Source of the DNA: Minisyncoccota bacterium
GTDB taxonomy: Bacteria; Patescibacteriota; Minisyncoccia; Phycocordibacterales; UBA2100
Direction of reading: 5' to 3'
Assembly: GCA_043780835.1 (NCBI GenBank)
Contig: JAYWCB010000002.1
Span: 27,466 to 91,465 of the forward strand
DNA: 64,000 nt
Positions 41,028 to 61,216 of this stretch are shown here, one piece after another. Under the pieces are notes generated by a model that saw only the letters and a program-made list of their open reading frames with translations, was not told the origin of the DNA and did no database searches. The translations under genes and the position numbers were made by a program. Positions within the stretch are counted from its first letter, which is position 1. Each line of letters starts with the position of its first letter.

Positions 41028-41095
41028 ATGAATACAATCAGTATACAGGAGTGTTCGGCGGTCGATTGCATTGATGCGCTTATAGTGTGGATGAA

Positions 41096-41908: not shown

Positions 41909-41911
41909 GTG

Positions 41912-42370: not shown

Positions 42371-43045
42371 CTATTTTAAAGTGTCGACGCGATGTATGAG
42401 CGACTGAATATAGTCAATCGCTACGCGCGTGCCGTTCCCCCTATTCCCCTGCACAAGAATGGACTTCCCCGCTCCTTCAATTACAACACCCGGCGTTGCA
42501 TCAACCCCCGCACCTTTGCCCTCAGCAATGTCGTCGTCCACAATCTTTTTCGCAACACCACTTGCAACACAGGTTCGCACGGGGGCGACTGCAATTCCGA
42601 CGGCTTCTGCTGCCGCATATCCCGCATTATCCGACTGCGACGTCGCAACAGGTTGATCAACTTTGAATAAGCGCGATACGTATTTCCAATATGTTTCTTC
42701 CCCATCAATACGCGCGATGCACTCTGCGATCTGCGCTTTCAAATATGCACCAGTATGTTCTTCGCGTGGAAAATTTTTATATATCACAACGATGCCGCCC
42801 CCATATGCAGCGTGAAGTTTTCCATAAGATCTTTCGTGAAAGTCCTTGCAGTGTGGACACTCGTAATCTGTAAATATCGTCAGTGTAATCGGCGCAGCGA
42901 GATTTCCTATCACATGCCGGGCTGCGGTGTGGACTGCCGATTGTGACTCTTGTCTACCGGTGTACACGGTCGTGAACACCAATACCGCAGTGATGACGAC
43001 TCCGATGACCGCTATCAGTGCAGTAATAAAGCGCACCGGTTTCAT
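42371..43045 (-). CDS. Membrane-anchored DsbA-like thiol:disulfide oxidoreductase; paralog of 54201-54899
   Basis: N-terminal TM. Thioredoxin CPHC active site in FTDYECPHCKDFHE. Confidence 0.7.
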   Translation of the reverse strand: MKPVRFITALIAVIGVVITAVLVFTTVYTGRQESQSAVHTAARHVIGNLAAPITLTIFTDYECPHCKDFHERSYGKLHAAYGGGIVVIYKNFPREEHTGAYLKAQIAECIARIDGEETYWKYVSRLFKVDQPVATSQSDNAGYAAAEAVGIAVAPVRTCVASGVAKKIVDDDIAEGKGAGVDATPGVVIEGAGKSILVQGNRGNGTRVAIDYIQSLIHRVDTLK

Positions 43046-43047
43046 GC

Positions 43048-44211: not shown

Positions 44212-44492
44212 CCATCATCTGCGTCACCTGATCCACCTGCATCGCCTCCACAATCATCATCGTCGCCACCGGTTGACACATCGACCACTATCGCCTCTGC
44301 ATGAGCAACGGGCACATCGAGGTGAACTCTATCTGCTATCAAAGCGTGCTCGGGATCGTGAATGGATGTGTGAGGACTGATTGCAAAAAAAAGACCGAGA
44401 AAACTGAAAAAGATTCCGCTCGCCCACGAGACTTGTTTGATCAGACGTTTTGCGCGGCGCTCGATGAATACCATGCATTCATCATATCTCAA
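44208..44492 (-). CDS. Small membrane-anchored peptide with Gly/Asp/Cys-rich C-terminal tail; paralog of 56035-56310
   Basis: Basic N-terminus, TM helix ASGIFFSFLGLFFAISP, conserved VAHAEAIVVDVS, tail TGGDDDDCGGDAGGSGDADDG. First gene of the minus-strand operon. Confidence 0.4.
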   Translation of the reverse strand: MRYDECMVFIERRAKRLIKQVSWASGIFFSFLGLFFAISPHTSIHDPEHALIADRVHLDVPVAHAEAIVVDVSTGGDDDDCGGDAGGSGDADDG

Positions 44493-45930
44493 TTACATGA
44501 AGGAATGGGCACCTGCTGGGGAAAAGGTTTTTCAAGCGAAGACTATCGGCCTGATATACACTACTGCCATGTTTCGTTTCAGGCGCATCGGCGAGTACTA
44601 CAAACGCCTCTTTTCAGTTTCTGAAATTGAAACGACACCGGTGCTGCAATGGATGTGCGGTGTCACACTCCTCTTCTTTTACGCCACCTTCACGCGCTGG
44701 ATTTACAGCGATGAAGCCACGATTGATGCGGTGAATCGCGGCGCCGCATACTGCTGGCCGTATTTTCAAAGCTGTCACGCTCTCTTTTTCCTGCATAGCT
44801 TACCTTACAGCTACGTGCAGATGACCTTTTACATGGGACTGCTTGTCAGTATGTGCGCAACCGTGTACGCAATGTGGAAAAAACGGTGGGCGCTGGTACA
44901 CGCACTCCTCTCGATACTTTTTGCATGGAAGCTGTGGGTGATGTTTGTGCTTTCATACGAGATTTCGGGCAATTACGACTACTACCACGTGTTCCTCACC
45001 TTTTTACTCCTTGTGGTGCCGCATAAAGAGTATTTCCTCAAACTATGCTTCGTGGTTCTCTATTTCCTTTCCGTTACAACAAAATTTCATCAAACGTGGA
45101 TCCTGGGCAGCTACTTTACGTCGCTCCATACCGGTACGCCTCTTTTTCCTGATGCGGTTGCGCCCCTGCTCACCAATACCGTGATCTTTATGCAGGTTAT
45201 CGGCAGTTGGTTTTTAATCAGCAGGAACTGGCCGCTACAACGCCTCTCGCTTACATACTTCACGATATTCCATTTGTATTCGGGGATTCTCGTGCGCTAC
45301 CTCTATCCCTCGATCGCACTTACCGCACTCCTCGTATTGTTTGGGCCCCTCTATCGGTACACGCCACCGCCGCGATCCTTACTCAAAGCGCTGCCGGGAG
45401 CACTGCTCATTCTTACGCAGTTCGCATTTCAGATGCCTGCTCATTTCATAGTCGGTGATCAGAAACTGACGCTCGAGGGTAATAAGTACGGCATGTACAT
45501 GTTCGAAGCGAATCATCAATGTATCGGGCATATGAAATATATTGAGCGACGCGACGGTCCGGTTGCGGAAACGTTTTCTCAGATTCCACCCGGTACACAA
45601 TGTCCGGGAGGGTCGTGTGTGACGAAGCGCCACACATACGCAGACGGAGCGTACACTGTGCGCGAAGAAACATGGGAGTCAGCCGTCGCTTGGAACCGCT
45701 GCGATCCCTATTTGTTCTGGCAGCGGACTCGTCGATTTTGTGAGTTGCCGCGGGCGGTACGGGTCGATATGCAGTTCGACCACTCAATAGACGGCGGGCC
45801 ATTTTATCGCATTATCGATGAGCGAGATATTTGCGGCCTCACCTATCATCCGTTCGTGCACAATAATTGGATTCTGCTTCCACCCGACGCAAAGATCGTC
45901 GGCTATCCCGTCCAAAATATCTTGCGATAA
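44437..45930 (+). CDS. Large polytopic membrane protein with Cys-containing C-terminal soluble domain (possibly HTTM/vitamin-K-carboxylase-like). Start uncertain (maybe 44572).
   Basis: About 8-10 TM helices, then conserved C-domain (ANHQC...QFDHSIDGGPFYRI.DE..IC.L.Y). Paralogous to the next gene. Confidence 0.4.
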   Translation: MIRRFARRSMNTMHSSYLNYMKEWAPAGEKVFQAKTIGLIYTTAMFRFRRIGEYYKRLFSVSEIETTPVLQWMCGVTLLFFYATFTRWIYSDEATIDAVNRGAAYCWPYFQSCHALFFLHSLPYSYVQMTFYMGLLVSMCATVYAMWKKRWALVHALLSILFAWKLWVMFVLSYEISGNYDYYHVFLTFLLLVVPHKEYFLKLCFVVLYFLSVTTKFHQTWILGSYFTSLHTGTPLFPDAVAPLLTNTVIFMQVIGSWFLISRNWPLQRLSLTYFTIFHLYSGILVRYLYPSIALTALLVLFGPLYRYTPPPRSLLKALPGALLILTQFAFQMPAHFIVGDQKLTLEGNKYGMYMFEANHQCIGHMKYIERRDGPVAETFSQIPPGTQCPGGSCVTKRHTYADGAYTVREETWESAVAWNRCDPYLFWQRTRRFCELPRAVRVDMQFDHSIDGGPFYRIIDERDICGLTYHPFVHNNWILLPPDAKIVGYPVQNILR

Positions 45931-45933
45931 GCT

Positions 45934-47760
45934 ATGCCTACAACGTCACCAACATTTATTGTATTAACAGAGCTTGTAGGACACGCTCCCGCGTCTCTCA
46001 ATCAAATACAGGCTGTGATTGCACCGCATGTGCATTCCCTGACGGTAACGTGGCTCGCGCTGTGGTGTACAGCGCTTGTCTTTGCAATCCGAGCACTCAT
46101 CAACAAAATCCGATTTCCGGAACTCGATGTGCCGAGTACGACTCCATCGATTTCATTCGAGCTACCACCGATACTCACTCGCATACGCGTCCTGTACAGA
46201 CGATTATTCTCTGTTTCTGAAATTGAGCATTCGCTCGTACTCAGATGGCTCTATGGGGCGATGCTGTTCGGATTCTTTACCTCGTTTGGAAATTGGATAC
46301 TTGATTCGTCGATCACCGCAGAAACTGCTTCGAAAGGTGCGCAGATCTGCTGGACGTATTTTCCGCAGTGTGGTCAGTGGTATGTGCTGCATACCCTGCC
46401 CTACGGATACTCATATACGAGTGTATACATGGTGCTGTACGCCGTCATGCTTGCCTGCGTTTTTGCGATGTGGAAGAAATCGTGGACGTCTGCGCATGCA
46501 TTGATGATGATCCTCTTTGTGTGGAAAGTGCTTGTGATGTTCGTGCTCACCGCTTCTATTCAGGGTGGCCCGAACTACCACCATGTACTGATCACCTTCG
46601 TGCTCTTATTTCTCCCGTATAAGGAGTTTTTCGCGCGCGTGTCGTTTGTCGTCATGTATTTCTTGTCGGCAGTCATCAAGCTTGATGAATCGTGGATACT
46701 GGGCGAATATTTTACATCGCTTCAGTCCGGACTGCCCGTGTTCGGAAACACACTTGCGCCCATCTTTACCAACGCGGTCATCGGCATGCAGATCATTTTG
46801 GGATGGTTTTTGCTCAGTGGAAGAAGTCGCATCCAAAAAACGGCGCTCGTGTGCTTTAGCGTGTTCCATATCTATGCAGGTATTTTTGTCGGGTACACGT
46901 ATCCCATACTCGCGCTCTCCATGCTGTGGATTCTGTTTGGACCACTGTTTCACGTAAGTACAATCCCGCTTAACCGTCGTTCGGTGGCAGGATGGATAAC
47001 ACTCATCGCGCTTTTTGCATTTCATGCACCGGCACATCTCATAGAAGGCGATCAGCGAATGACACAAGAAGGAAGTCGCTTCGGATTGAATTTATTTGAC
47101 GCGAATCATCAGTGTGCGAGTACCCTCTCGATCTACGCTACATCGAGTACACCTGTGCGCGATACGCAATGGTCCGCAAAACCGCGGCAAACCTGTGGTG
47201 ATTATATTTGTCTCACCACCACGATTACGCACGAAGCCGACGACATGGTTGTAACGCGCGAACGGTGGGAATCTCCCGTATCGTGGCAACGGTGTCGCGT
47301 ATCTACGTTTTGGTCAATTGCAAAACAACAGCATTGCAGCGATCCGGGTGTGCTTCGCGTGCAGATGCAATTTGATCACTCAATTGACGGTGGACCGTTT
47401 TACCGCATCGTAGACGAGCAGAATATTTGCACACTTTCATATCAGACATTTAGCCACAACGGCTGGATAAAAATGCCACCAGAAGCACCCATCGTCGGAT
47501 ATCCGGTCAAAAATGTTTTCCGCTACCAGCGTCAAAGCGGCAGCGCGTTCAATGAACGTGCCCCTCAAATTTCTACGTCTTCAGATATCATCGCGCTCAA
47601 CGAACTCGTGGGTAACGATCGGATACAGCGCACCAGTCTCCAGAGCGCGGTTGCGCCATACTTTCCGGTGCTCGTGTTCTTCTGGCGCGTTATCTGGACA
47701 ATGATGTGTGCACTCGTGATCAGTCGCGTGTGGTTTGCATATCAGCGAACCAAAAAATAA
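45934..47760 (+). CDS. Paralog of 44437-45930: large polytopic membrane protein (HTTM-like?) with extra C-terminal TM
   Basis: Colinear similarity, e.g. RLFSVSEIE, HVLITFVLLFLPYKEFF, QFDHSIDGGPFYRIVDE. Confidence 0.4.
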   Translation: MPTTSPTFIVLTELVGHAPASLNQIQAVIAPHVHSLTVTWLALWCTALVFAIRALINKIRFPELDVPSTTPSISFELPPILTRIRVLYRRLFSVSEIEHSLVLRWLYGAMLFGFFTSFGNWILDSSITAETASKGAQICWTYFPQCGQWYVLHTLPYGYSYTSVYMVLYAVMLACVFAMWKKSWTSAHALMMILFVWKVLVMFVLTASIQGGPNYHHVLITFVLLFLPYKEFFARVSFVVMYFLSAVIKLDESWILGEYFTSLQSGLPVFGNTLAPIFTNAVIGMQIILGWFLLSGRSRIQKTALVCFSVFHIYAGIFVGYTYPILALSMLWILFGPLFHVSTIPLNRRSVAGWITLIALFAFHAPAHLIEGDQRMTQEGSRFGLNLFDANHQCASTLSIYATSSTPVRDTQWSAKPRQTCGDYICLTTTITHEADDMVVTRERWESPVSWQRCRVSTFWSIAKQQHCSDPGVLRVQMQFDHSIDGGPFYRIVDEQNICTLSYQTFSHNGWIKMPPEAPIVGYPVKNVFRYQRQSGSAFNERAPQISTSSDIIALNELVGNDRIQRTSLQSAVAPYFPVLVFFWRVIWTMMCALVISRVWFAYQRTKK

Positions 47761-47782
47761 AAACCCGGGCGAACCCGGGTTT
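47761..47782. terminator. Hairpin terminator (aaacccgggc-gaa-cccgggttt), strong on the minus strand (followed by TTATTTTTT)
   Basis: Perfect stem between the convergent 45934-47760(+) and 47801-48028(-) genes. Confidence 0.45.
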
Positions 47783-47800
47783 CTAAAACCGTCATTTCAA

Positions 47801-48028
47801 TTACGCGCAGCTTCGTTCACGGCCGCCGCCGTGACCCTTCATACTGCATGAGCCGACGACCTTCTGTACGCCGGACGGGCACGAGCCGCTTTTCACGTAG
47901 ATAACTTGCTTGCAATTGAGCTCACCCGCCGCTGGCTCTGCGCCGAGGGGATTGCTGCGGCTTTGCGCCTGAGCGGCACCGGCGATCAGCGCAACGAACG
48001 TACACGCGAGTATGGTCGAACGAATCAT
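47801..48028 (-). CDS. Small secreted Cys-rich peptide (75 aa precursor)
   Basis: Signal peptide MIRSTILACTFVALIAGAAQA. Mature region with 5 Cys. Strong SD AGGGAGG 6 nt upstream. Paralog-like to 60303-60551 (shared AQSR after signal). Confidence 0.45.
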   Translation of the reverse strand: MIRSTILACTFVALIAGAAQAQSRSNPLGAEPAAGELNCKQVIYVKSGSCPSGVQKVVGSCSMKGHGGGRERSCA

Positions 48029-48145
48029 TGATTCCTCCCTTGATGAGGCTGCCGGTCGTGTGACAGCTGGCGATTTTATACCACATGCTGGCTAAATTGC
48101 AATCTGCTCAATGACCCGATCTCAGCACAGCGGTATACTCTCACC

Positions 48146-49891
48146 ATGTCGCTACTCGCTGCTCGTGATCGTATTAAACGTGCAATCGAAACACGCGCAT
48201 ATGTAGATGTCAGACAAGGTACGATCGTTCAAAGAAACAAACAGGTGAAGACTGAAGGGTGGCTTATCGATATTCGTTCAATACTACTCGATTCTGATGT
48301 ACTCTCTGACATAGCGGAAGTATTTTGGGACTCGTTTCGAGAAATGAACGATGTGCAGATCGGCGGCATTGAAACTGCCGCTATCCCGCTCATTACCTCG
48401 CTTGTTACACATGCAAAGACGTATGCACAGCGCGAACACACATCGGGATTTTATATACGCAAATCACGAAAGAAAGACGGGCTTCTTAAAATGATCGAAG
48501 GAACACTCGTACCGGATGTGCCAGTGATACTCGTAGATGATCTCATCAATAGCGGACAAAGCCTGATTCGTCAGGTTGAAGTTTTACGCGATCACGGCAC
48601 AGCGGTGCACGCGGTGTGGACCCTTGTGCGATTCCGGGATCCTGAATTCTATACGTATTTTTCAGAGCGGAATATTCCAATATATTCGCTATTCACGCTC
48701 AACGATTTTCACGATTCACTTGGCCTGAGCAATCGGACAAGTGGTGCGCTCGACGAGCGATACGCGCCGTTTCGCGTGCTATGGCGGTACGGCTCGCCAC
48801 GCCCGAGTTACCAACACGTGGTTCCAAAATCTGATCCCGTAATCGACGAGCAGCTACTGTTTATTGGATCTGACACCGGTCACATGCGTGCCTTGCGCCA
48901 AAAAGACGGTGGTATCGCGTGGGAGTTTAAAACCGGCACACACGCACACGGCAAAGGTATTTTTTCTACACCAGCGCTCCACAATGGAGTTCTCTATTTC
49001 GGATCGTATGACGGCAATGTATACGCCCTCGATGCAATGACGGGTCGCACGAAATGGACCTATTGGGATGCGGACTGGGTCGGTTCATCGCCCACTCTTG
49101 CACCCGATCTCGGGATACTCTTTATTGGATTGGAATTCGGATTATGGAGAAAACGCGGCGGCATTGCCGCACTCGATATGCGTACCGGAAAGACGGCGTG
49201 GGAACATATAATGCCGTGCTATACGCACTCATCTCCACTGTATATTCCAAAACACGCGCAGGTCGTTATTGGAAGCAATGACGGCGCAGTGTATTTGTAC
49301 AACGCATCCACCGGCACGCTTCTGTGGAAATATGAAAAAGCCGCCCTCACCGCACGCGAGCTCGAAACGGGATTCGGTGAGCGCGACATCAAAGAATCAT
49401 TTGCCTACGACGCAGCGCGCGACATCATTCTGTTTGGCGCCATGGACGGCACGCTGACCGCGCTCGAGCGCTCAACAGGGAGAGCGCTGCGGTCATTCCA
49501 GGCAGAATTCGGCATCTATTCAACCCCCATTATTCACGGTGATACCGTTATTTTTAGCTCTCTCGATAAACATCTGTATTGCCTCAATATTGATACTTTA
49601 GAATTGAAATGGAGGTGGTACGCAGGTGCTCGTCTATTTGCCACGCCAGTTATCATGGGCGGCATGATATATATCGGTGCCAATACCGGGAGATTAACCG
49701 TACTCGACGCTGAATCAGGCCTCGCTCGCACTTATTTCACCGTAAGCGAACGAATCACAAATAGGATTGCATTCAACCCGATCACGCGACATCTTTTTCT
49801 CACAACGTTTGCCAACGAGGTGTACTGCCTTGAGCAACCACCATCAATGGCAGATATTACGAACCTGCCGGCTCGTACCACTGTGGAATAA
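48146..49891 (+). CDS. Orotate-PRTase-like (type I PRTase) domain fused to a PQQ-repeat beta-propeller; paralog of 58610-60253
   Basis: PRPP-binding loop PVILVDDLINSGQSL, PyrE-like IRKSRKKDGLLKMIEG. Then repeated DGNVYALDAMTGRTKW / DGAVYLYNASTGTLLW / DGTLTALERSTGRAL propeller blades. Confidence 0.55.
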   Translation: MSLLAARDRIKRAIETRAYVDVRQGTIVQRNKQVKTEGWLIDIRSILLDSDVLSDIAEVFWDSFREMNDVQIGGIETAAIPLITSLVTHAKTYAQREHTSGFYIRKSRKKDGLLKMIEGTLVPDVPVILVDDLINSGQSLIRQVEVLRDHGTAVHAVWTLVRFRDPEFYTYFSERNIPIYSLFTLNDFHDSLGLSNRTSGALDERYAPFRVLWRYGSPRPSYQHVVPKSDPVIDEQLLFIGSDTGHMRALRQKDGGIAWEFKTGTHAHGKGIFSTPALHNGVLYFGSYDGNVYALDAMTGRTKWTYWDADWVGSSPTLAPDLGILFIGLEFGLWRKRGGIAALDMRTGKTAWEHIMPCYTHSSPLYIPKHAQVVIGSNDGAVYLYNASTGTLLWKYEKAALTARELETGFGERDIKESFAYDAARDIILFGAMDGTLTALERSTGRALRSFQAEFGIYSTPIIHGDTVIFSSLDKHLYCLNIDTLELKWRWYAGARLFATPVIMGGMIYIGANTGRLTVLDAESGLARTYFTVSERITNRIAFNPITRHLFLTTFANEVYCLEQPPSMADITNLPARTTVE

Positions 49892-50726
49892 CATTCACGG
49901 TTCTAGTTTCGGTAATTGTGGTAGGTGTAGCACCGGCTTTTGAATGGCAGAAGAGTGTGTAATCGGTGCGACTCGTGATCGGACTGGTGACTTTCCCTGA
50001 AGGACCCGAGCCTGAAGAAATTCCTGACGTATCCCACGAACCGGTACGACTCCCTGCGGTGCCGTCGCCGTTTGTGCCATGCACCGTGCAGTCACGTACA
50101 TTTGTTACGTTCCAGTAGACGCGTGATGGATCTCCTGAACGTACGAGTGACGGCCGGACTTCGAGATGCCCTGAGGCACTGAATCCTTGCGTCGTGGTAA
50201 ATCCTATAAATTGTGGTGATTGTGGTGGTAGACACGCATTGCCTTGTGCGGTGTACCCGACCGGACATGCTGGACATGCCCCCAATCTGTCGGGCAGGGA
50301 TCCATCCCAACAGGTTGATGCGTACGTGCTTTCGTATGAGCTTTCTGCGGGACCGGAGGCTTGAGAAGGTCCGGAGGCTTGAGAAGGTCCGGAGGCTTGA
50401 GGTGGAGGATATGCGGCTTCGTAGTAACTCGTAACAGGACCGGAGTCTTGTGGTGGCGGATATGAGGCTTGGTAGTAGCTTTGGTAGTACGCCTGATAGT
50501 ACGCCTGATAGTACGCTTCGTAGTAGTCTACGACAGATCCGCCAGATGCGGGCACAACTTGTAAACCCGATGGCGTGGTATCAGTGAAGCGAGCCTCGGC
50601 TGAAACTGCAACATGATGATTCGACACCCCATTCAAGAGAAAATATGCAATTGCAAAAATTGCCGCCGCAAATAATCCATACCGCAGAAAACGGAATACG
50701 GGGCGCCGATGCGTGTGATGAACCAT
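49857..50726 (-). CDS. Anchored Tyr/Gln/Ser-rich repetitive surface protein
   Basis: N-terminal TM. YYQAYYQAYYQSYYQASY and (GPSQAS)n repeats encoded by DNA tandem repeats. Confidence 0.4.
   Translation of the reverse strand: MVHHTHRRPVFRFLRYGLFAAAIFAIAYFLLNGVSNHHVAVSAEARFTDTTPSGLQVVPASGGSVVDYYEAYYQAYYQAYYQSYYQASYPPPQDSGPVTSYYEAAYPPPQASGPSQASGPSQASGPAESSYESTYASTCWDGSLPDRLGACPACPVGYTAQGNACLPPQSPQFIGFTTTQGFSASGHLEVRPSLVRSGDPSRVYWNVTNVRDCTVHGTNGDGTAGSRTGSWDTSGISSGSGPSGKVTSPITSRTDYTLFCHSKAGATPTTITETRTVNVIPQWYEPAGS
50353..50404. repeat. 18-bp tandem repeat (ccggaggcttgagaaggt) x about 2.8 inside CDS
   Basis: Direct perfect repeats encoding GPSQAS units. Confidence 0.55.
50467..50530. repeat. 12-bp tandem repeat (gcctgatagtac and variants) x about 5 inside CDS
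   Basis: Direct repeats encoding AYYQ units. Confidence 0.5.
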
Positions 50727-54200: not shown

Positions 54201-54899
54201 TTATTTTTTCCCTAAGAGATAGCTGATACTCGTCGCAATCTGCGAACGGTAATCCCCTTTTATGATGATACTGCGTCCTGCGGATTTCAAAACAATAGAC
54301 GGTGTTACGTCGAGTCCGGCAATTGCACCTTGGACCATGTCACGCCTTACCCGATCGGCGGGAGTTTGATTTTTTACACATTGATCGAATGACGCCGGAT
54401 TGACCCCGACGTTCACTGCGAAACGCGTGAGCGTCACCGGATCGACTGGTCCCTCGAGCCGAGGAGAGCTGTAGACATCTGTTACGAAGGTATCAAATGC
54501 CGCCGCGCCACGATCATTAAATACGCACTCGGCGGCAATCGCCTCACCATACGCACCCGTGTGCTTTGGCAGCGGCAGATGACGAAATGCGATCAATAAT
54601 GTATTGGCGAACTCTTTCTGCAATGCGGGGAGAGTCTGCAAATAGAGATGTTTGCAATACGGACAATCAAGATCCGAATACACAATCATTTGAACCGGAG
54701 CTTTCAAATCACCGGAATATATATGATCGTCTGCGGCCACACCAATAACCGCAAGCGGTGATTGATCATCAACGGTCCGGACCTGTTCGAGCGCACGCTT
54801 ATTATGCAAAACAGCCAGTAGAATAAATACACCGATACCGACCGCAGAAATTACTAAGATTAGAATTTTCGAATCACGTTTGATTTTGGAACTTCGCAT
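54201..54899 (-). CDS. Membrane-anchored DsbA-like thiol:disulfide oxidoreductase (paralog of 42371-43045)
   Basis: CPYC active site in YSDLDCPYCKHLY. Confidence 0.7.
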   Translation of the reverse strand: MRSSKIKRDSKILILVISAVGIGVFILLAVLHNKRALEQVRTVDDQSPLAVIGVAADDHIYSGDLKAPVQMIVYSDLDCPYCKHLYLQTLPALQKEFANTLLIAFRHLPLPKHTGAYGEAIAAECVFNDRGAAAFDTFVTDVYSSPRLEGPVDPVTLTRFAVNVGVNPASFDQCVKNQTPADRVRRDMVQGAIAGLDVTPSIVLKSAGRSIIIKGDYRSQIATSISYLLGKK

Positions 54900-56399: not shown

Positions 56400-57839
56400 A
56401 TGATTCTTGATGCTGAGCTGTTTACTGTAGTCAAGAATGCCCACAATACGGACAGTTCTCAAAGTCCGATCGCGCGGTTTATTGCCTACATTGAAAAAAA
56501 ACTCGGCGTTGTTGTAGCGTACGATAAACACGACCTGCCCTATGGAAGGACAGATCTTTCGCAACAATTTACACTTGCTGCAAAACTTGAACACGCCGGT
56601 ATCCTTCGCACGTTCGGTCCAATCATTCCATTGGCGGACGAACCGCAAATGCGCTTATGGGGAACCCGCGACACGACCGATCAACACGCCGGTGGCGCAA
56701 CAATGAATGACGACGCGGCGGCATTGACCGCAGCGCTTGCAGAGGGTTTGGAGCGCTCAATTTGGAGAACGAAAAACGATTATTTTGACGGTGCTATCCG
56801 TGCGACAGTCGGAGAAATTGCGATCAAAGGCAGGTACATCGCCCCAAAATCCTTTGCAAGTTTCTCTGAGGAGCAGCGGGAAGGAAACTCACAACTACGC
56901 CTGCCTCCGGAAGCAACGTACACATGGATTAAGGGTAAATCATTGGTATCAAACGAAGCAACCTATGTGCCTGCTCAGACCGTGAGCGGTAATCGCGCCT
57001 GGCTTACCGATCCGTACAGTGAACCACGAATCCGTATACCGATTACCATCGGTCTCGCCACGTGGCCTACACGATCGGGTGCGCAACTCGCCGGCGCACT
57101 GGAAGTGATCGAACGAGAGGCGTATATGATTATGTGGCTCAACCAGCTCACGCTTCCCCACATTCGCTTGGAAGATTTACAAGCAAAGTACCCCGAACTT
57201 GAATCGGTATTATCTGACTGTAAACGATATCGCATCAAGCCGCACGTGATACCCATGCTTACCGATGCACCTGTGCATGCGGTCAGTGTCATTTTAGAGG
57301 ACATGTCGGGCAACGCACCCCGTTTTATTATCGGGTTAAAAGCCCATCGGTCGTTTGCGCTTGCGGTCGAAAAAGCCATTACCGAAGCCCTTCGTGGACG
57401 AGCATTTTGCCGAAGAGATTTTCTTCCCAAGGGCGACTGGGACACCTCGCGATCCGTAGACACCGTTGGTCATTATGAGCGACTCTATTATTGGAGCCAT
57501 CCGCAAAACGCGCGCAAATTGGAATTTCTGGTGAGCGGCGCGGAAATAGCCGTGCCGGAAACAACATGGGAAAATTTGTCGATCGAGGAACATCTCAAAA
57601 TGGTTACCGCATGGTGCGCGACGAATCAATTCGATTGCATTTCGGTATCATTGAGCACTAAAAAAAACAATCCCACGTCTTGGTACATTGAAATGGTGGT
57701 TATCCCGCAACTGCAACATACGTATCTCGACGAAAAACTCCGTCAACTCGGTGGAACGCGCCGCTTAGAGGTACCGAAACTGTTCGGCTATTCACCACGA
57801 CCCGCACCATACCTTGACGACCCTCATCCGTACGCATGA
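56400..57839 (+). CDS. YcaO-domain protein (ATP-dependent peptide-backbone-activating enzyme; cyclodehydratase/thioamidase family)
   Basis: GGATMNDDAAALTAALAEGLERSIW matches the YcaO ATP-binding region (G.G......A..SAL.EA.ER, ExxER). About 480 aa, typical size. Confidence 0.6.
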   Translation: MILDAELFTVVKNAHNTDSSQSPIARFIAYIEKKLGVVVAYDKHDLPYGRTDLSQQFTLAAKLEHAGILRTFGPIIPLADEPQMRLWGTRDTTDQHAGGATMNDDAAALTAALAEGLERSIWRTKNDYFDGAIRATVGEIAIKGRYIAPKSFASFSEEQREGNSQLRLPPEATYTWIKGKSLVSNEATYVPAQTVSGNRAWLTDPYSEPRIRIPITIGLATWPTRSGAQLAGALEVIEREAYMIMWLNQLTLPHIRLEDLQAKYPELESVLSDCKRYRIKPHVIPMLTDAPVHAVSVILEDMSGNAPRFIIGLKAHRSFALAVEKAITEALRGRAFCRRDFLPKGDWDTSRSVDTVGHYERLYYWSHPQNARKLEFLVSGAEIAVPETTWENLSIEEHLKMVTAWCATNQFDCISVSLSTKKNNPTSWYIEMVVIPQLQHTYLDEKLRQLGGTRRLEVPKLFGYSPRPAPYLDDPHPYA

Positions 57840-58596
57840 GCATATGACGATTTTTCTTTCACATCTGCATACTGCTTTACGCGCAACGCGATTCACCCGC
57901 CGAGGCGCGACGCGTCGACCTGAAGACGTGCCGCAAGGCACACATAAAGAATACAGTCGTATGGAACGTATTTCACTGCCGGAACCCGTGGTATTGGATA
58001 TTTCTCTACCCGAAGCGCTCTCCCGCCGTGTTTCATCACTGAATCAGGGTGGGGATACGCCGCTTTCGCTGCAGGATATTGGCACCGTATTTGGACTTGC
58101 GCTCAGACAGCACGCCGATTCGAATCACAGAAATTATCCGTCCGGTGGCGCACTCTATCCGATTGAAACGTATTTGATTGCAACATCACTGGAAGGTGCG
58201 GCTCCCGGGGTGTACCACTATCACCCCTCTGCACATGCACTTGAATACTTATGGGAACTCGAGCCGAATTTTGATATCACCCGACTCGTTCAGAAACCGG
58301 AGTTTCTCTTACCTTCCGCACTGATCGTGTTCACGAGTGTATGGCGTCGATCATCCGCAAAATACGGCGATTTCACGTACGGACTTTCATTACTCGAGGC
58401 AGGCCACATGTCGGAAAACGTGCTTCTCGTCTCAAGTGCACTCAAGCTCCAGGTGCGCCCCATGGCAGGATTCGACGACCAGCGAACGAATGATCTTTTG
58501 GACCTTGACCCTGATCTCGAGCAAGCGGTGCACTCTATTACGCTTTCGAAAGGCGCGCATGTGCAGACTCGCGCCCGTATGGATGCAGACGAATGA
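57814..58596 (+). CDS. SagB/McbC-type FMN-dependent dehydrogenase (nitroreductase fold)
   Basis: Hallmark NYPSGGALYPIETY (PSAGALYP-type motif). Size about 250 aa. Start may be the second Met at 57844 to avoid overlap with ycaO. Confidence 0.6.
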   Translation: MTTLIRTHEHMTIFLSHLHTALRATRFTRRGATRRPEDVPQGTHKEYSRMERISLPEPVVLDISLPEALSRRVSSLNQGGDTPLSLQDIGTVFGLALRQHADSNHRNYPSGGALYPIETYLIATSLEGAAPGVYHYHPSAHALEYLWELEPNFDITRLVQKPEFLLPSALIVFTSVWRRSSAKYGDFTYGLSLLEAGHMSENVLLVSSALKLQVRPMAGFDDQRTNDLLDLDPDLEQAVHSITLSKGAHVQTRARMDADE

Positions 58597-58609
58597 GCAA
58601 TGCTCGTGT

Positions 58610-60253
58610 ATGACCGCACAAGAAAAATTATTTCATCATGCAATCGCTGCCGGGGCTTTTATCCGCTCAAACGCGATAACTCCCATCATTCGATCCGAGC
58701 ATACCGGTGATCGGGATGAGTGGATATTTGATTTCAGAGCAATCATGCTGCAACCGACATGGCTTGCCTGCTACGCTGAACTATTCTGGGAACGATTCGC
58801 GACTCAGTACCCGTTTCAAGTGGGAGGACTTGAAACGGCATCAATCGCACTTATTACTGCAATCGTGATGAAAGGAATTGAGCGAGGCACACCAGTAAAT
58901 GGGTTTTATGTGCGAAAGTCGCGAAAACGACAGGGACTTATGAAACAAGTGGAGGGCACGCTGACCGATGATCCGATCGTACTCGTTGACGACCTCATAA
59001 ATTCGGGACAATCCTTCCTTCGACAACTTGAGATCCTCGAAAGTCTGGGGAAAACCGTTCGGGACGTGTTCGTAATCCTCGCGTTCCGCGACGATGCGAC
59101 CTATCACTTTTTAAACGATCGTGGTGTTCGTTTTTCAAAACTGTTTACGGTTGCTGATTTCGATATTCCACTCCTCAAGGAAACACCGGATGTCCCGGAT
59201 GATGCATTTGTTGAACATTGGTTGTATGCGCCGCAGCACATGAGTCACTATAATGTGGTACAAAAATCAGCTCCCATCCTGTTCGAAAACCTCATTCTGT
59301 ACGGCGGCGACGATGGTATCTTTCGAGCACTCGATAGCGAACATGGAACCGTCGTATGGAATTTTAAAGTAGGACGACATCCGGATGGAAAAGGAATATT
59401 GTCCTCGCCGTGCATATACAACGGCACGGTATTTTTTGGCGCGTATGACGGTAACGTATACGCGCTCAATGCGCGCAGCGGTACGCAACAATGGCAATAC
59501 GACCACGCAGATTGGATCGGTTCATCTCCTGCGGTAGCAGGAAAATTTGGAGTCATATGTATCGGTCTTGAATTCGGATTGTTCAGAAAGAGAGGCGGCA
59601 TCGCCGCGATCGATATTGCGACCGGTGTCGAACGGTGGAACGCACCACATGCAGCCCTTACCCACGGTTCGCCACTCTACATCGAATCAGAAGACATCGT
59701 CGTCATTGGCGATAATGACGGTGTCGTATACGCATATCGTGCTTCTGACGGTGAACTGTTGTGGCGAACACCGTGCGATAGTGACATCAAGACGACTCCT
59801 GCATATGACGCAAAACGTAAACAGATACTGTGCGGCACGATCAAAGGAACTCTCTATGCATTGTCCGTACACAACGGTTCTCCGATGCGCGCGTTTTCGA
59901 CTGCGGGATTTTATTCGATACCGCTCGTGATTGATGATGTGGCCTACGTTGCATCGCTCGACAAGCACCTGTACGCCCTCGATCTCGTCAGTTGGAAGCC
60001 GCGATGGGAGTTTCGCACCAATGGCCGCATTTTTGCATCGCCTCGCCTCTTCGACGATTCGGTATGGATCGGCTCCAACGACGGCAGACTCTACGAGATC
60101 GATCCGAAGACAGGCACGCTCATTCGTTTTTTCCAAACGACCGAAAGAATTTTGAACGCGGTCGAGTATGACGCATCGTCAAAAAAGATATATATTCCGA
60201 CATCATCGAACGGCATGTACTGCATATCTAAAAAGATGGGTGCGGATGCATAA
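58610..60253 (+). CDS. Orotate-PRTase-like domain fused to PQQ-repeat beta-propeller (paralog of 48146-49891)
   Basis: PIVLVDDLINSGQSF, FYVRKSRKRQGLMKQVEG, DGNVYALNARSGTQQW propeller blades. Start trimmed to MTAQEK after the SagB stop. Confidence 0.55.
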   Translation: MTAQEKLFHHAIAAGAFIRSNAITPIIRSEHTGDRDEWIFDFRAIMLQPTWLACYAELFWERFATQYPFQVGGLETASIALITAIVMKGIERGTPVNGFYVRKSRKRQGLMKQVEGTLTDDPIVLVDDLINSGQSFLRQLEILESLGKTVRDVFVILAFRDDATYHFLNDRGVRFSKLFTVADFDIPLLKETPDVPDDAFVEHWLYAPQHMSHYNVVQKSAPILFENLILYGGDDGIFRALDSEHGTVVWNFKVGRHPDGKGILSSPCIYNGTVFFGAYDGNVYALNARSGTQQWQYDHADWIGSSPAVAGKFGVICIGLEFGLFRKRGGIAAIDIATGVERWNAPHAALTHGSPLYIESEDIVVIGDNDGVVYAYRASDGELLWRTPCDSDIKTTPAYDAKRKQILCGTIKGTLYALSVHNGSPMRAFSTAGFYSIPLVIDDVAYVASLDKHLYALDLVSWKPRWEFRTNGRIFASPRLFDDSVWIGSNDGRLYEIDPKTGTLIRFFQTTERILNAVEYDASSKKIYIPTSSNGMYCISKKMGADA

Positions 60254-60282
60254 AAAGGCCGGCATCAATTGCCGGCCTTTTG
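60253..60282. terminator. Bidirectional terminator (aaaaggccggc-atcaatt-gccggcctttt)
   Basis: Perfect 9-bp stem flanked by A/T tracts between convergent genes. Confidence 0.55.
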
Positions 60283-60302: not shown

Positions 60303-60551
60303 CTATTTCATCTTGCCGGAGGATGTGCTCATGCTCTTCCACTGTTCGGATCGTGCGTTCGGTTGGTCGTTCACGAACTCTTTCGACGGCGTACAACTGG
60401 ACGAACAGGAAACGGCGCCTGGCATGTACTTGCTACACCACGCGACGCACGTAATTTTTCCTGCCGGACGGGATTGTGCGAGCGCCTCGCTCAGCGAGCC
60501 ACTGACTACCAGCAATGCCATGAGGGCAGATTTAGTAAGTAATTTCTGCAT
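60303..60551 (-). CDS. Small secreted Cys-rich peptide (82 aa precursor)
   Basis: Signal peptide MQKLLTKSALMALLVVSGSLSEALA. CVAWCSKYMPGAVSCSSSC. Strong SD AAGGAGG 6 nt upstream. Confidence 0.45.
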   Translation of the reverse strand: MQKLLTKSALMALLVVSGSLSEALAQSRPAGKITCVAWCSKYMPGAVSCSSSCTPSKEFVNDQPNARSEQWKSMSTSSGKMK

Positions 60552-60670
60552 CGCATCCTCCTTGAAGGTGATGTATCGCTTGATGCACTTTCTCAACCAC
60601 CAAAGTATTCTATAACTTAGAATCCTCCCGACGTCAATGGGTCTATTTATTCGGGGCGGGGCGATAATGA

Positions 60671-61216
60671 TTGCGCGGTATGCGATCTCGCTTCGATCAA
60701 TTTTCTTTCACAGCCGGTGTTTGTGTTGCGCTCCTTGTTCTCTGTTTCGGTGCTTGGTTTGGAATAGGAAAAATATTTTTTGCAATCGTGTTTGATCCAT
60801 CACTTCCGGCGCTCTCGCGTGTATCGTTTGCGAGATCACTCCTTTTTGGAGCGTTCACTGATAAACCCCTCGTGGAGTTGGCGTATCTTGTGAGCGTTGC
60901 AGTTCTTATCGGGGTGAATGCCACACTCACGAGCACCTACATTCGAACCTATCGCAAACTGGAAACATCATATGGCATATCGAGCGGTCTGCTTGGCCTT
61001 GTCTCCGCTGTGCTCGGTTTTGGGTGCGCCGCATGCGGCTCCCTCGGTGCAGGATGGGCACTGGCGTCTGTCGGTGCCGGTAGCCTTATCGCGGCACTTC
61101 CCTTTGGCGGCATTGAGTTACGCGTGAGTGCCCTCGCACTTCTTGCACTATCATCATATTTTATGATCCGCGAGCTTCGCCGCGCGCAGTCATATATGAA
61201 ATCATCGAAATCGTGA
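60671..61216 (+). CDS. Hypothetical polytopic membrane protein
   Basis: 4-5 hydrophobic helices. Confidence 0.4.
   Translation: MRGMRSRFDQFSFTAGVCVALLVLCFGAWFGIGKIFFAIVFDPSLPALSRVSFARSLLFGAFTDKPLVELAYLVSVAVLIGVNATLTSTYIRTYRKLETSYGISSGLLGLVSAVLGFGCAACGSLGAGWALASVGAGSLIAALPFGGIELRVSALALLALSSYFMIRELRRAQSYMKSSKS

What the first reader, a model, noticed from the sequence alone, without database searches (positions are those of the whole stretch)
47801..48028. Two strongly translated small secreted Cys-rich peptides flanking the cassettes (47801-48028 and 60303-60551)
Each has a Sec signal peptide followed by AQSR and a 45-55 aa mature region with 5-6 Cys (CKQV..SGSCPSG..VVGSCSMKG..C and CVAWCSKY..VSCSSSCT). 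Each has a perfect AGGGAGG/AAGGAGG SD 6 nt before the ATG (rare in this genome) and a strong intrinsic terminator downstream. Each sits beside an OPRT-like-propeller gene. They are good candidates for bacteriocin-like or signalling peptides whose disulfides are made by the co-located DsbA paralogs, and possibly for substrates of the HTTM-like proteins (compare B. subtilis SdpC maturation by SdpAB).
Basis: partly seen in the sequence, partly recalled or inferred. Interest (0 to 1): 0.6.

Follow-up and report, generated by a model that had tools for sequence, protein, structure and literature searches.

The report
Two small secreted cysteine-rich proteins
Two real but unannotated genes in a Patescibacteria (CPR) genome encode small exported, probably disulfide-bonded proteins of unknown function; they sit in a position beside a conserved, uncharacterised gene cluster where related genomes carry other, unrelated peptides of the same kind.

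Summary
Both ORFs exist as described: pepA 47801-48028(-), 75 aa, and pepB 60303-60551(-), 82 aa. Each has a Sec-type signal peptide ending A-x-A|QSR and a GC-rich hairpin terminator. Each also has one of the two strongest Shine-Dalgarno sites among about 60 genes in a window where many promoters look leaderless. Corrections: each mature peptide has 4 Cys, not 5-6, and the SD-ATG spacing is 5 nt.

PepA is a peripheral member of Pfam DUF6719. Its closest relative (56% identity) lies in an alphaproteobacterial-type context, and pepA is a GC outlier, which suggests horizontal transfer. PepB belongs to an unnamed "G-K-I-T-C-x-x-W-C" family with no Pfam model and no known fold. In both families Cys residues are gained or lost in pairs, which argues for disulfides.

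The neighbourhood is a conserved CPR module. Outside-facing TPR, DsbA and rhodanese proteins are encoded on one strand. YcaO, SagB, a polytopic membrane protein and a PRTase-propeller are encoded on the other. In about 10 of roughly 45 related loci, an unrelated SD-led secreted Cys-rich ORF occupies the same convergent position at the operon's 3' end.

The bacteriocin or signalling role is untested. The "HTTM-like" link has no sequence support.

The parts
47801..48028 (-). pepA coding sequence: 75 aa, signal peptide residues 1-21, mature 54 aa with 4 Cys. Peripheral DUF6719 member.
   Evidence: Translation. Pfam DUF6719 at 31.3 bits against a gathering score of 27. Ten relatives at E <= 1e-3 among 1.84 billion proteins, the best at 56% identity. 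GC 61.4% against 50.7 +/- 1.9% for window genes.
48034..48039 (-). pepA Shine-Dalgarno site GGGAGG, 5 nt before the ATG
   Evidence: Duplex energy -11.3 kcal/mol, second strongest of about 60 genes.
48073..48102 (-). pepA promoter-like site (TTGCAA, 18 nt, TAAAAT), giving a leader of about 40 nt. It lies back to back with the Prop1 promoter-like site at 48111-48139(+).
   Evidence: Consensus scan. This is a consensus match only.
47758..47785 (-). pepA intrinsic terminator hairpin (12 pairs, then TTTTTTGGTT), shared with the convergent Mem608 gene
   Evidence: Fold energy -19.5 kcal/mol.
60303..60551 (-). pepB coding sequence: 82 aa, signal peptide residues 1-25, mature 57 aa with 4 Cys. Member of an unnamed G-K-I-T-C-x-x-W-C family.
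   Evidence: Translation. Family found in CPR loci L035 (two copies), L049 and L029, and in database proteins P0001-P0006. No Pfam or NCBIfam model.
60557..60562 (-). pepB Shine-Dalgarno site AGGAGG, 5 nt before the ATG
   Evidence: Duplex energy -11.4 kcal/mol, the strongest in the window.
60607..60637 (-). Possible pepB promoter (TTGACG, 17 nt, TATAGA), giving a leader of about 55 nt
   Evidence: Read by eye from the upstream sequence printed. The scanner did not report it. Inference only.
60249..60281 (-). pepB terminator: GGCCGGCA/TGCCGGCC hairpin, then TTTTTAT on the minus strand. Shared with the convergent Prop2 gene.
   Evidence: Fold energies -22.5 (minus strand) and -25.1 (plus strand) kcal/mol. 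Missed by the consensus scan.
44437..47760 (+). Context: Mem497 and Mem608, paralogous polytopic membrane proteins with a Cys-rich C-terminal domain. PepA is convergent at the 3' end of this operon.
   Evidence: No Pfam or PDB match.
48146..49891 (+). Context: Prop1, a type-I PRTase domain fused to a PQQ-like beta-propeller, predicted cytoplasmic. Divergent from pepA.
56400..60253 (+). Context: the YcaO (C-terminal PxPxP), SagB-family dehydrogenase and Prop2 operon. PepB is convergent 49 bp after its stop codon.
60671..61216 (+). Context: g181, a 4-TM protein with a conserved membrane-embedded G-C-A-A-C-G motif. Divergent from pepB, and adjacent to small Cys peptides in L049, L035, L034 and L007 as well.
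42371..43045 (-). Context: DsbA1, membrane-anchored thioredoxin-fold protein with a CPHC site
54201..54899 (-). Context: DsbA2, membrane-anchored thioredoxin-fold protein with a CPYC site

Best explanation
PepA and pepB are genuine genes for small proteins that the Sec system exports. Signal peptidase cleaves them after A-x-A, leaving an N-terminal Gln. Outside the cell each folds into a compact domain held by two disulfide bonds.

They are not orthologues of each other, and neither is a fixed part of the neighbouring gene cluster. Instead they occupy a variable 'cargo' position, convergent at the 3' end of a conserved CPR operon (YcaO, SagB, polytopic membrane protein, PRTase-propeller). In related genomes that position holds unrelated SD-led, Sec-signal, Cys-rich ORFs.

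Unlike most genes in this genome, which look leaderless or lack an SD, these two have 40-60 nt leaders with near-perfect SD sites and their own terminators. That suggests separately controlled, efficient translation.

PepA was probably acquired horizontally from a high-GC donor, with Alphaproteobacteria as the best lead.

What is shown: the genes are real, they have family relatives, they carry export and translation signals, Cys residues co-vary in pairs, and the position recurs. What is inferred: the actual disulfide bonds, oxidation by the co-located membrane-anchored DsbA paralogs, and an extracellular role in dealing with other cells (antagonism or host interaction), which I consider the most likely use for a surface-attached CPR bacterium.
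For: Real genes:
- PepA scores above the Pfam gathering threshold for DUF6719. It has 10 relatives at E <= 1e-3 among 1.84 billion proteins, the best at 56% identity.
- PepB shares AGKITC-x-x-WC-x-KY-x-PG with P0004 and has at least 8 relatives.
- The antisense ORF over pepB has no homologs, and no frameshift explains pepB's C-terminus.

Export:
- Both have the n/h/c layout with an A-x-A site, and the mature domain is what is conserved in both families.
- SecY is present in the window.

Disulfides:
- PepA family: C2 and C4 are invariant. C1 and C3 are both present in 5 sequences and both absent in 4, never one alone.
- PepB family: C1 and C6 are both present in 5 sequences and both absent in 2.
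- Cys counts are even in 11 of 13 peptide families at such loci.
- The AlphaFold model of the pepB-family domain is compact, with pLDDT 76-87.
- Outward-facing DsbA paralogs with CPHC and CPYC sites lie in the same region.

Special expression:
- These are the two strongest SD sites of about 60 genes.
- 9 of 58 genes have a -10 box ending 4-12 nt before the start codon, against 1.1% of random positions.
- Strong SD sites recur upstream of family members elsewhere.
- Both have terminator hairpins.

Variable position:
- The module is conserved in 51 CPR loci.
- 8 of 24 SD + signal-peptide + Cys candidates lie within 500 bp of Prop, against 2.0 +/- 1.3 by random placement, with 0 of 2000 permutations reaching 8.
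- A convergent peptide sits at the operon end in L020, L030, L031, L035, L038, L039, L044 and L049, from at least 6 unrelated families.
- The most syntenic genome, L039, has a different 4-Cys peptide at pepB's position.

Horizontal transfer of pepA:
- No homolog in the 51 CPR loci.
- The nearest relative lies next to GcrA, DUF2336 and PilZ genes on a 64% GC contig.
- PepA GC is 61.4% and GC3 68.4%, above all 26 window genes tested; only 0.19% of same-size windows reach that GC.
Against: - No expression or proteomic data. The Logan gene call for this contig does not call pepA.
- Signal peptides were judged by heuristics, not SignalP.
- The disulfide pairing is inferred from small, phylogenetically non-independent samples. 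I could not measure Cys-Cys distances in the model.
- The positional association is partial: about 10 of roughly 45 loci with enough downstream sequence. The permutation null allowed placement over non-module coding sequence, which flatters the enrichment. A first slot-based test was invalid.
- High GC in both peptides could partly reflect their Ala/Gly/Pro/Cys-rich composition rather than foreign origin.
- DsbA is absent from most peptide-bearing loci within the 20 kb seen.
- The proposed extracellular function is not tested by anything here.
Confidence: 0.6

Rival explanations
1. The peptides, pepB above all, are precursors of ribosomally made, post-translationally modified peptides. The adjacent cytoplasmic YcaO cyclodehydratase and SagB-type dehydrogenase would convert some Cys/Ser/Thr into thiazole or oxazole rings before Sec export. 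This would be a YcaO counterpart of the bufferins, which are Sec-signal RiPPs whose Cys are modified by MNIO enzymes.
For: - PepB lies 49 bp from the end of a YcaO-SagB-Prop2 operon. YcaO has the C-terminal PxPxP motif, and SagB passes the TIGR03605 cut-off (114.7 against 78.4 bits).
- Family members sit between SagB and Prop in L049 and L088.
- 7 of 10 operon-end peptides are next to an operon containing YcaO-SagB.
- The cores are rich in Cys/Ser/Thr (VSCSSSCTPS, SGSCPSG, VGSCS) and vary greatly between genomes.
- No other candidate precursor was seen.
- Bufferins show that Sec-signal Cys-rich RiPP precursors exist and can combine heterocycles with a disulfide (PMC11626156).
Against: - The N-termini are ordinary Sec signal peptides with no conserved leader.
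- Cys are gained and lost in pairs and counts are even, as expected for disulfides.
- PepA sits beside a cassette without YcaO-SagB, and its closest relatives lie in contexts with no YcaO.
- P0004 and P0006 lie on contigs with no YcaO, although those contigs are short.
- About half of the YcaO-type loci have no such peptide at the operon end, so YcaO probably has another conserved substrate.
- The enrichment of peptides with YcaO-containing loci over YcaO-lacking loci is not significant (6 of 19 against 3 of 28, my count).
- No docking or leader-binding (RRE-type) protein was detected.
Confidence: 0.15
2. The peptides are substrates of the polytopic membrane proteins Mem497 and Mem608, taken to be HTTM / vitamin-K-carboxylase-like. 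These would process or modify them during export, as SdpAB matures SdpC in Bacillus subtilis.
For: - PepA, the L031 peptide and the L035 peptides are convergent right after a Mem497/Mem608 gene.
- The Mem497 family has an N-terminal multi-helix membrane domain and a C-terminal beta-rich Cys-containing domain.
- One of 20 members gives a weak VKGC lumenal-domain hit at E = 0.18.
- The family's invariant Cys, His and Lys (C106, H155, K197) lie at roughly the spacing I recall for human GGCX. That is from memory and is only a lead.
Against: - No Pfam HTTM/VKG_Carbox hit even at E = 10.
- A 20-member profile finds nothing in PDB sequences.
- The AlphaFold model of the membrane domain is unusable (pLDDT 44.5) and Foldseek finds nothing.
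- No SdpA or SdpI homolog was seen.
- Most Mem497-bearing loci have no adjacent peptide.
Confidence: 0.1
3. The peptides are extracytoplasmic thiol or metal buffers or chaperones, not effectors. They would bind copper, zinc or another thiophilic ligand through their Cys, or serve as redox partners of the module's DsbA, rhodanese and g181 (CxxC) proteins.
For: - They sit among outward-facing thiol-redox proteins: DsbA (CPHC, CPYC), a PspE-like rhodanese, and g181 with a membrane-embedded GCAACG motif.
- PepA has a His/Gly-rich C-terminal stretch (KGHGGGR).
- One relative's contig carries a cupredoxin gene.
- Bufferins are Sec-exported Cys-rich metallophores.
Against: - Paired Cys gain and loss points to structural disulfides rather than free metal-binding thiols.
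- A housekeeping buffer would not be expected to be replaced by unrelated families from genome to genome.
- No metal-resistance genes are in the window.
Confidence: 0.1
4. One or both ORFs are chance or decaying reading frames that are not expressed.
For: - PepA is not called in the public gene prediction for this contig.
- PepB has lost two of its family's six Cys and has a divergent, low-complexity C-terminal tail.
Against: - Both have significant protein-level family relatives.
- Both have intact signal peptides, optimally spaced strong SD sites that are otherwise nearly absent from the window, and dedicated terminators.
- PepB's Cys loss is paired and shared with P0003.
Confidence: 0.03

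Closest known systems
Pfam DUF6719 (PF20477), a family of small secreted proteins of unknown function
   Same: PepA matches the model end to end (residues 5-74 to profile positions 4-72 of 78) above the gathering score. It shares the size, the signal peptide, the L-x-x-EP-x-x-G-x-L and VYV-x-x-G-[ST]-CP-x-G-x-x-K-V-T-G-G motifs, and the C-terminal R-x-x-C.
   Different: PepA is a peripheral member (31 bits, against 58-66 bits for core members) in a 4-Cys subclade. It is encoded in a CPR genome beside a YcaO/PRTase-propeller module, whereas its relatives lie in unrelated contexts, apparently proteobacterial. The family has no known function, so membership explains nothing mechanistically.
Sec-dependent class II bacteriocins such as enterocin P and lactococcin 972 (from my own knowledge)
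   Same: Small, ribosomally made, exported through a Sec signal peptide rather than a dedicated ABC transporter. Some are disulfide-stabilised. They often sit next to a small multi-pass membrane immunity protein, and pepB is divergent from the 4-TM protein g181.
   Different: No sequence or fold similarity was detected. G181 carries a conserved CxxC-type motif that suggests redox chemistry rather than immunity. No antimicrobial activity has been tested.
Bufferins (BufA precursors with MNIO BufB and DUF2063 BufC), PMC11626156
   Same: Sec signal peptide on a Cys-rich small protein of 60-70 residues that folds, encoded next to cytoplasmic Cys-modifying enzymes. Bufferins combine heterocycles with a disulfide.
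   Different: There is no MNIO (DUF692) or DUF2063 gene here. The neighbouring enzymes are YcaO and SagB. The peptides are on the opposite strand, are not in DUF2282, and are absent from many module loci.
TOMM / linear azol(in)e peptide precursors such as McbA and SagA (from my own knowledge)
   Same: Cys/Ser/Thr-rich small peptides encoded beside a YcaO cyclodehydratase and a SagB/McbC-type dehydrogenase, with sequences that vary greatly.
   Different: Those precursors carry a cytoplasmic leader peptide and use dedicated exporters. Here the N-terminus is a Sec signal peptide, the Cys framework behaves like disulfide pairs, and pepA has no adjacent YcaO.
SdpC with SdpAB of Bacillus subtilis
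   Same: A Sec-signal peptide with a disulfide, encoded near a polytopic membrane protein.
   Different: No detectable similarity of Mem497/Mem608 to HTTM/SdpB. No SdpA, SdpI or SdpR. No similarity between the peptides and SdpC.

Membership tests
Pfam DUF6719 (pepA) | Whole-protein score at or above the curated gathering score (27 bits) | tested here: met
   31.3 bits, E = 1.8e-7, residues 5-74 against profile positions 4-72 of 78. Relatives P0012-P0014 score 58-66 bits. P0008 scores 17 bits, and P0007 and P0015 give no hit, so pepA sits at the family's edge.
Pfam DUF6719 (pepB) | Score at or above the gathering score | tested here: not met
   No hit. PepA and pepB align only over the signal-peptide end.
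Sec-exported protein (both peptides) | N-terminal signal peptide with a positive n-region, a hydrophobic h-region of 10-15 residues and an A-x-A cleavage site; Sec machinery present | tested here: met
   Seen directly in the sequence and conserved as a feature across both families. SecY is at 24695-25969. No dedicated predictor was available, and export itself is not testable with these tools.
Disulfide-stabilised mini-protein | Even number of Cys, conserved spacing, and Cys gained or lost in pairs | tested here: met
   4 Cys in each mature peptide. PepA family: C1 and C3 both present in 5 sequences and both absent in 4. PepB family: C1 and C6 both present in 5 and both absent in 2. The actual bonds are not testable with these tools.
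TOMM / azol(in)e RiPP precursor | Encoded beside a YcaO cyclodehydratase and a SagB/McbC-type dehydrogenase | tested here: inconclusive
   Met for pepB, which is 49 bp after the YcaO-SagB-Prop2 operon. Not met for pepA, whose nearest YcaO is about 8 kb away beside the other cassette, nor for family members P0004, P0006, P0018 and P0008, which lie on short contigs without YcaO.
TOMM / azol(in)e RiPP precursor | N-terminal leader recognised by a docking or RRE protein, and a C-terminal core with heterocyclisable residues | tested here: not met
   The N-terminus is a Sec signal peptide. No conserved leader and no docking or RRE protein was detected among the operon genes. The cores are Cys/Ser/Thr-rich.
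TOMM / azol(in)e RiPP precursor | Azol(in)e heterocycles in the mature product | not testable with these tools
   Needs mass spectrometry of native or co-expressed peptide.
Bufferin (MNIO-modified Sec RiPP) | Adjacent MNIO (DUF692) and DUF2063 genes; precursor in DUF2282 or BUF_6/12Cys | tested here: not met
   No such domains appear in any gene of the two cassettes.
   Sequence tests were negative: Pfam at E <= 10, a 20-member scan, and a PDB profile search. The structure test is uninformative because the model is poor (pLDDT 44.5).
Known bacteriocin or defensin folds | Structural similarity of the mature domain to a solved fold | tested here: not met
   Foldseek of the pepB-family model against PDB gave a best E of 2.2 and TM-scores of 0.35 or less. 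PepA was not modelled.

The most novel reading that the evidence does not exclude
These peptides represent a new class of Sec-exported RiPPs in CPR bacteria. Hypervariable Cys/Ser/Thr-rich small proteins would be heterocyclised in the cytoplasm by a leader-independent YcaO-SagB pair, possibly with the PRTase-propeller as the substrate-binding partner. They would then be exported by Sec and finished outside the cell by the module's membrane-anchored DsbA, rhodanese and TPR proteins. The variable position at the operon's 3' end would be a swappable precursor cassette, supplied partly by horizontal transfer from the bacteria that CPR cells live on.
Probability: 0.12. Interest if true: 0.8.

Novelty: new member of a known kind. 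Interest (0 to 1): 0.4.

Why it matters
CPR/Patescibacteria have tiny genomes, are thought to live attached to other microbes, and are almost entirely uncultured, so very little is known about what they secrete.

This finding identifies two unannotated genes for exported, disulfide-type mini-proteins. They have unusually strong translation signals in a genome that otherwise largely lacks SD sites. Related genomes carry different peptides of the same kind at the same position, next to a widely conserved but undescribed module (YcaO, SagB, PRTase-propeller, plus outward-facing TPR, DsbA and rhodanese proteins).

That gives concrete candidates for CPR surface or interbacterial factors. It also gives a lead on gene flow between a CPR bacterium and Alphaproteobacteria, and a testable question about what the CPR YcaO-SagB pair modifies.

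As it stands, the peptides themselves are ordinary in kind, and one belongs to an existing Pfam DUF. Their function is unknown.

Tried and rejected
1. Word-indexed homolog searches with pepA and pepB alone found nothing. Only a family alignment and the exhaustive HMMER search worked.
2. PepA and pepB are not homologs of each other beyond the signal-peptide end.
3. The metagenome scan with g418, chosen so that 10 kb flanks would cover both peptide positions, gave only 3 distant loci in a different context with no peptides. No close relative of this genome was found, so orthologue-level (dN/dS) analysis was impossible.
4. The first enrichment test, based on intergenic slots, was invalid. My crude gene calling let spurious opposite-strand ORFs mask most peptides, including pepB. 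I replaced it with a permutation test that needs no gene calls.
5. HTTM claim: Pfam at E <= 10, a 20-member Pfam scan and a PDB profile search were all negative. The two-sequence model was too poor.
6. Foldseek of the pepB-family model found no known fold.
7. tblastn of pepA and P0004 against annotated plasmids and phages gave no match, so the mobile-element idea prompted by resolvase and RT neighbours is unsupported.
8. A frameshift does not explain pepB's odd C-terminus, and the antisense ORF 60331-60615(+) is rejected.
9. Rfam found no RNA family in the window.
10. Literature searches for the module, for DUF6719 and for CPR Cys-rich secreted proteins found nothing specific.
11. NCBIfam found no TOMM docking protein among g218 and g361.
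12. A lipoprotein reading of pepA's 'ILAC' was rejected. The preceding segment is too short for a lipoprotein signal, and that Cys is absent from relatives.
Full report
**1. What is at the coordinates**

The minus strand carries two small ORFs:
- pepA, 47801-48028, 75 aa: MIRSTILACTFVALIAGAAQA|QSRSNPLGAEPAAGELNCKQVIYVKSGSCPSGVQKVVGSCSMKGHGGGRERSCA
- pepB, 60303-60551, 82 aa: MQKLLTKSALMALLVVSGSLSEALA|QSRPAGKITCVAWCSKYMPGAVSCSSSCTPSKEFVNDQPNARSEQWKSMSTSSGKMK

Both begin with a basic n-region, an uncharged hydrophobic stretch of 13-15 residues, and an A-x-A site followed by QSR. I had no signal-peptide predictor, so this rests on those features. It also rests on the fact that in both protein families the conserved part starts right after that site, while the hydrophobic N-terminus varies. 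SecY is encoded in the window at 24695-25969.

Each mature peptide has four Cys, and pepA's fifth lies in the signal peptide.

**2. Expression signals**

GGGAGG (48034-48039) and AGGAGG (60557-60562) each end 5 nt before the ATG. I computed the anti-SD duplex energy upstream of about 60 genes. The two peptides rank first and second (-11.4 and -11.3 kcal/mol), while most genes lie between -3 and +1. The hexamers are not enriched in the window as a whole (12 observed against 12.7 and 13.9 expected), so it is their placement that is special.

Many other genes instead have a TAYANT box ending 4-12 nt before the start codon: 9 of 58, against 1.1% of random positions. This points to leaderless mRNAs at operon starts. 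The peptides therefore stand out as leadered, SD-dependent genes.

Both are followed by GC-rich hairpins with T tracts, at -19.5 and -22.5 kcal/mol. The scanner missed the second, probably because A/T pairs extend its stem. Each hairpin lies between convergent genes and can terminate both. Rfam finds no structured RNA anywhere in the window.

**3. The neighbourhood and the organism**

One strand encodes proteins that each carry one N-terminal membrane anchor and so should face outward: several TPR proteins, a DsbA-like protein (CPHC in copy 1, CPYC in copy 2), a PspE-like single-domain rhodanese, and the unknowns g168, g289 and g418 (16 Cys).

The other strand, divergent from the first, encodes predicted cytoplasmic proteins:
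- a YcaO with the C-terminal PxPxP motif;
- a SagB-family dehydrogenase (114.7 bits against a cut-off of 78.4);
- a fusion of a type-I phosphoribosyltransferase domain with a PQQ-like beta-propeller ('Prop').

That strand also encodes the polytopic membrane proteins Mem497 and Mem608.

The window has this module twice, with the parts split between copies. Cassette 1 has Mem497, Mem608 and Prop1. Cassette 2 has YcaO, SagB and Prop2. The two Prop proteins are 40% identical.

A scan of species-representative genomes with the two Prop paralogs returned 51 loci with full-length relatives. Nearly all are from Patescibacteria (Kaiserbacteria, Paceibacterota and similar), with a best identity of 57%. 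The same genes recur there in the same arrangement. The module lies next to or inside the S10 ribosomal-protein operon, both in the window (rplC and rplD follow g168) and in L089.

The searchable literature only mentions that antiSMASH flags YcaO clusters in CPR genomes. It has nothing on this module.

**4. PepA's family**

PepA passes the gathering threshold of Pfam DUF6719 (31.3 bits against 27). An exhaustive HMMER search of 1.84 billion representatives found 10 relatives at E <= 1e-3. The best are 78-aa and 77-aa proteins at 56% and 45% identity. Three of the relatives are strong DUF6719 members at 58-66 bits, so pepA belongs to a divergent subclade at the family's edge.

The shared pattern is: signal peptide, L-x-x-EP-x-x-G-x-L, VYV-x-x-G-[ST]-CP-x-G-x-x-K-V-T-G-G, and a C-terminal R-x-x-C. 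The CP Cys and the C-terminal Cys are invariant. The other two Cys are both present in five sequences (pepA included) and both absent in four, never one alone. That is what two disulfides, C1-C3 and C2-C4, would produce.

The domain also occurs as lipoprotein versions and as repeats inside 756-aa and 6466-aa proteins.

None of the 51 CPR loci has a pepA relative. The closest relative lies next to GcrA, DUF2336 and PilZ genes on a 64% GC contig. GcrA is restricted to Alphaproteobacteria, which I state from my own knowledge. A second relative also has no module nearby.

PepA itself is a compositional outlier. Its GC is 61.4% against 50.7 +/- 1.9% for window genes, its GC3 of 68.4% is above all 26 genes tested, and only 0.19% of same-size windows reach its GC. 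Horizontal acquisition is the simplest reading, although the peptide's Ala/Gly-rich composition contributes to the GC.

**5. PepB's family**

Searching the mature part of pepB against all ORFs of the CPR loci, then iterating, recovered a tandem pair in L035 and one gene in L049, with L029 as a more distant member. A family-profile search of the large protein database added P0004-P0006. P0004 reads AGKITCAQWCAKYRPG where pepB reads AGKITCVAWCSKYMPG.

The canonical family has six Cys. PepB and P0003 lack both the first and the last, again a paired loss. They share a C-x3-C-[ST] insertion, so pepB is a 4-Cys subtype. A frameshift does not explain its divergent tail, and the antisense ORF over it has no support.

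The family has no Pfam or NCBIfam model. An AlphaFold model of P0004 built on the 7-sequence alignment gives a compact strand-helix-turns-strand domain with pLDDT 76-87. It matches nothing in PDB (best E 2.2).

The contexts are mixed:
- P0005 and the L049 gene lie between SagB and Prop.
- P0003 lies beside a module embedded in the S10 operon.
- P0004 and P0006 lie on short contigs with resolvase or reverse-transcriptase genes and no module.

Neither family occurs on annotated plasmids or phages.

**6. A recurring position filled by unrelated peptides**

I searched the CPR loci for ORFs that combine an SD at proper spacing, a signal peptide and at least 3 Cys. This returned 24 candidates from at least six unrelated families.

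Eight lie within 500 bp of the Prop gene, against 2.0 +/- 1.3 under random placement in the same loci. None of 2000 permutations reached 8. The null is lenient, because it also allows placement over non-module coding sequence.

The typical layout is the window's own: a peptide gene convergent at the 3' end of the plus-strand operon. It appears in L020, L030, L031, L035, L038, L039, L044 and L049, which is about 10 of roughly 45 loci with enough downstream sequence and about half of the YcaO-SagB-Prop2-type loci.

L039 is the most syntenic genome, yet it has a different 4-Cys peptide exactly where pepB sits. Mature Cys counts are even in 11 of 13 families.

The 4-TM protein g181, with a conserved membrane-embedded G-C-A-A-C-G motif, is divergent from pepB. 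It neighbours such peptides in four other loci, but it is not universal.

**7. Interpretation**

The evidence best fits Sec-exported mini-proteins with two disulfides that occupy a variable position at the end of a conserved CPR operon and are translated through unusually strong SD sites.

The co-located DsbA paralogs are plausible oxidants, but the link is not specific. Most peptide-bearing loci show no DsbA within the 20 kb seen, and the module's own exported proteins are Cys-rich.

An extracellular role in dealing with other cells is my preferred inference. It rests on the turnover of families at one position, the apparent horizontal origin of pepA, and the lifestyle of CPR bacteria. Nothing here tests it.

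**8. Rivals**

- *RiPP reading.* Here YcaO-SagB would heterocyclise these peptides before Sec export. It is attractive because of the adjacency and because bufferins set a precedent for Sec-signal Cys-rich RiPPs (PMC11626156). It is weakened by the paired Cys behaviour, by pepA's relatives lying outside any YcaO context, by the many YcaO loci without a peptide, and by the lack of a leader or docking protein. I put it at about 0.15.
- *Sdp-like / HTTM reading.* This has no sequence support and could not be tested structurally. I put it at about 0.1.
- *Metal or thiol buffer.* I put this at about 0.1.
- *Spurious ORFs.* This is very unlikely, at about 0.03.

**9. Verdict**

In kind these are ordinary small secreted Cys-rich proteins, and one belongs to an existing DUF. 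The notable aspects are the context, the exceptional translation signals, and the likely horizontal origin of pepA. The context here means an undescribed, widely conserved CPR module with a variable peptide position.

Noticed in passing
window 39088-63553; loci L001-L051: A conserved, apparently undescribed CPR module. Outward-facing, membrane-anchored TPR, DsbA, rhodanese, g168, g289 and g418 proteins are encoded divergently from cytoplasmic YcaO, SagB-type dehydrogenase and a PRTase-beta-propeller fusion, plus polytopic Mem497/Mem608 and often g218 and g361. In the window it is duplicated, with the parts split between the two copies.
   Followed up: partly
window 37868-44211; L089 1-20267: The module lies next to or inside the S10 ribosomal-protein operon. 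In the window, rplC, rplD and rplB follow g168 on the same strand. In L089, module genes sit between S10 and L3 and between L2 and S19. Whether this implies co-transcription with ribosomal proteins, or a ribosomal substrate for YcaO, is unknown.
   Followed up: no
window-wide, e.g. 48111-48139(+) upstream of Prop1 and upstream of 50748-52004(-): 9 of 58 genes have a TAYANT -10 box ending 4-12 nt before the start codon, against 1.1% of random positions, and almost no gene has an SD. This suggests widespread leaderless translation in this genome.
   Followed up: partly
window 60671-61216 (+): G181 is a 4-TM protein with a conserved membrane-embedded G-C-A-A-C-G (CxxC) motif. Homologs also have a C-terminal Cys that the window copy lacks. 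It has no Pfam or NCBIfam hit and neighbours small Cys-rich secreted ORFs in the window, L049, L035, L034 and L007. It could be a membrane thiol-redox protein or an immunity-type protein.
   Followed up: partly
window 44437-45930 and 45934-47760 (+): The Mem497 family (alignment A2) has invariant C106, W107, C113, H155, K197, H279, an N-H-Q-C motif, R421-C422 and D-H-S around 448-450. It has a beta-rich C-terminal domain that is modelled with moderate confidence. The family has no database annotation. Short ORFs of about 65 aa resembling part of Mem608 follow Mem497 in L001, L030, L031 and L039.
   Followed up: partly
window 50748-52004 (-): G418 is a membrane-anchored protein with 16 Cys and repeated G-H-G / H-x-x-G-H motifs. 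It is found only in L039 (58% identity) and in three distant metagenome loci, where it occurs as tandem paralogs in another context.
   Followed up: partly
L020 4664-4990(-), L049 4751-4996(-); L020 5396-5566(+), L029 6467-6661(+), L034 7417-7608(+), L049 5751-5933(+): Two further families of SD-led secreted Cys peptides sit at the same kind of position in other CPR genomes. One has six Cys (GDCT-x-YS...C-x-SCCARNY...C-TNAC) and lies convergent 57 bp after Prop2. The other has three Cys (C-x-K-V-C-x-x-T-G-x-C-L at the C-terminus).
   Followed up: partly
L038 11722-12000 (-): A 92-aa secreted ORF with 12 Cys, made of two tandem repeats of C-x3-C-x2-WC-AENRPT-x2-C-RADC, lies convergent about 110 bp after Prop2. 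It shares the C-x-x-W-C element with the pepB family.
   Followed up: no
L091 (Logan SRR23617225 contig), equivalent to window about 45146-50382: The window's region is present in a public Logan assembly. The gene prediction on record there does not call pepA between Mem608 and Prop1. Neither peptide is in the 5.8-billion-protein collection.
   Followed up: yes
window 32501-32788 (+) and 29331-29918 (+): Two other ORFs, of 95 and 195 aa, have a well-spaced AGGAG SD and no Pfam hit. They are among the few other candidate SD-dependent genes in the window.
   Followed up: no
window 17790-20600 (-): A 936-aa protein with TraG/VirD4-type coupling-protein domains (TraG-D_C, TrwB) hints at a type IV secretion or conjugation-related system in this CPR genome.
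   Followed up: no
window 60331-60615 (+): A 94-aa antisense ORF overlapping pepB has its own GGAGG 8 nt upstream of an ATG. It has no homologs in any locus and is most likely a chance frame.
   Followed up: yes
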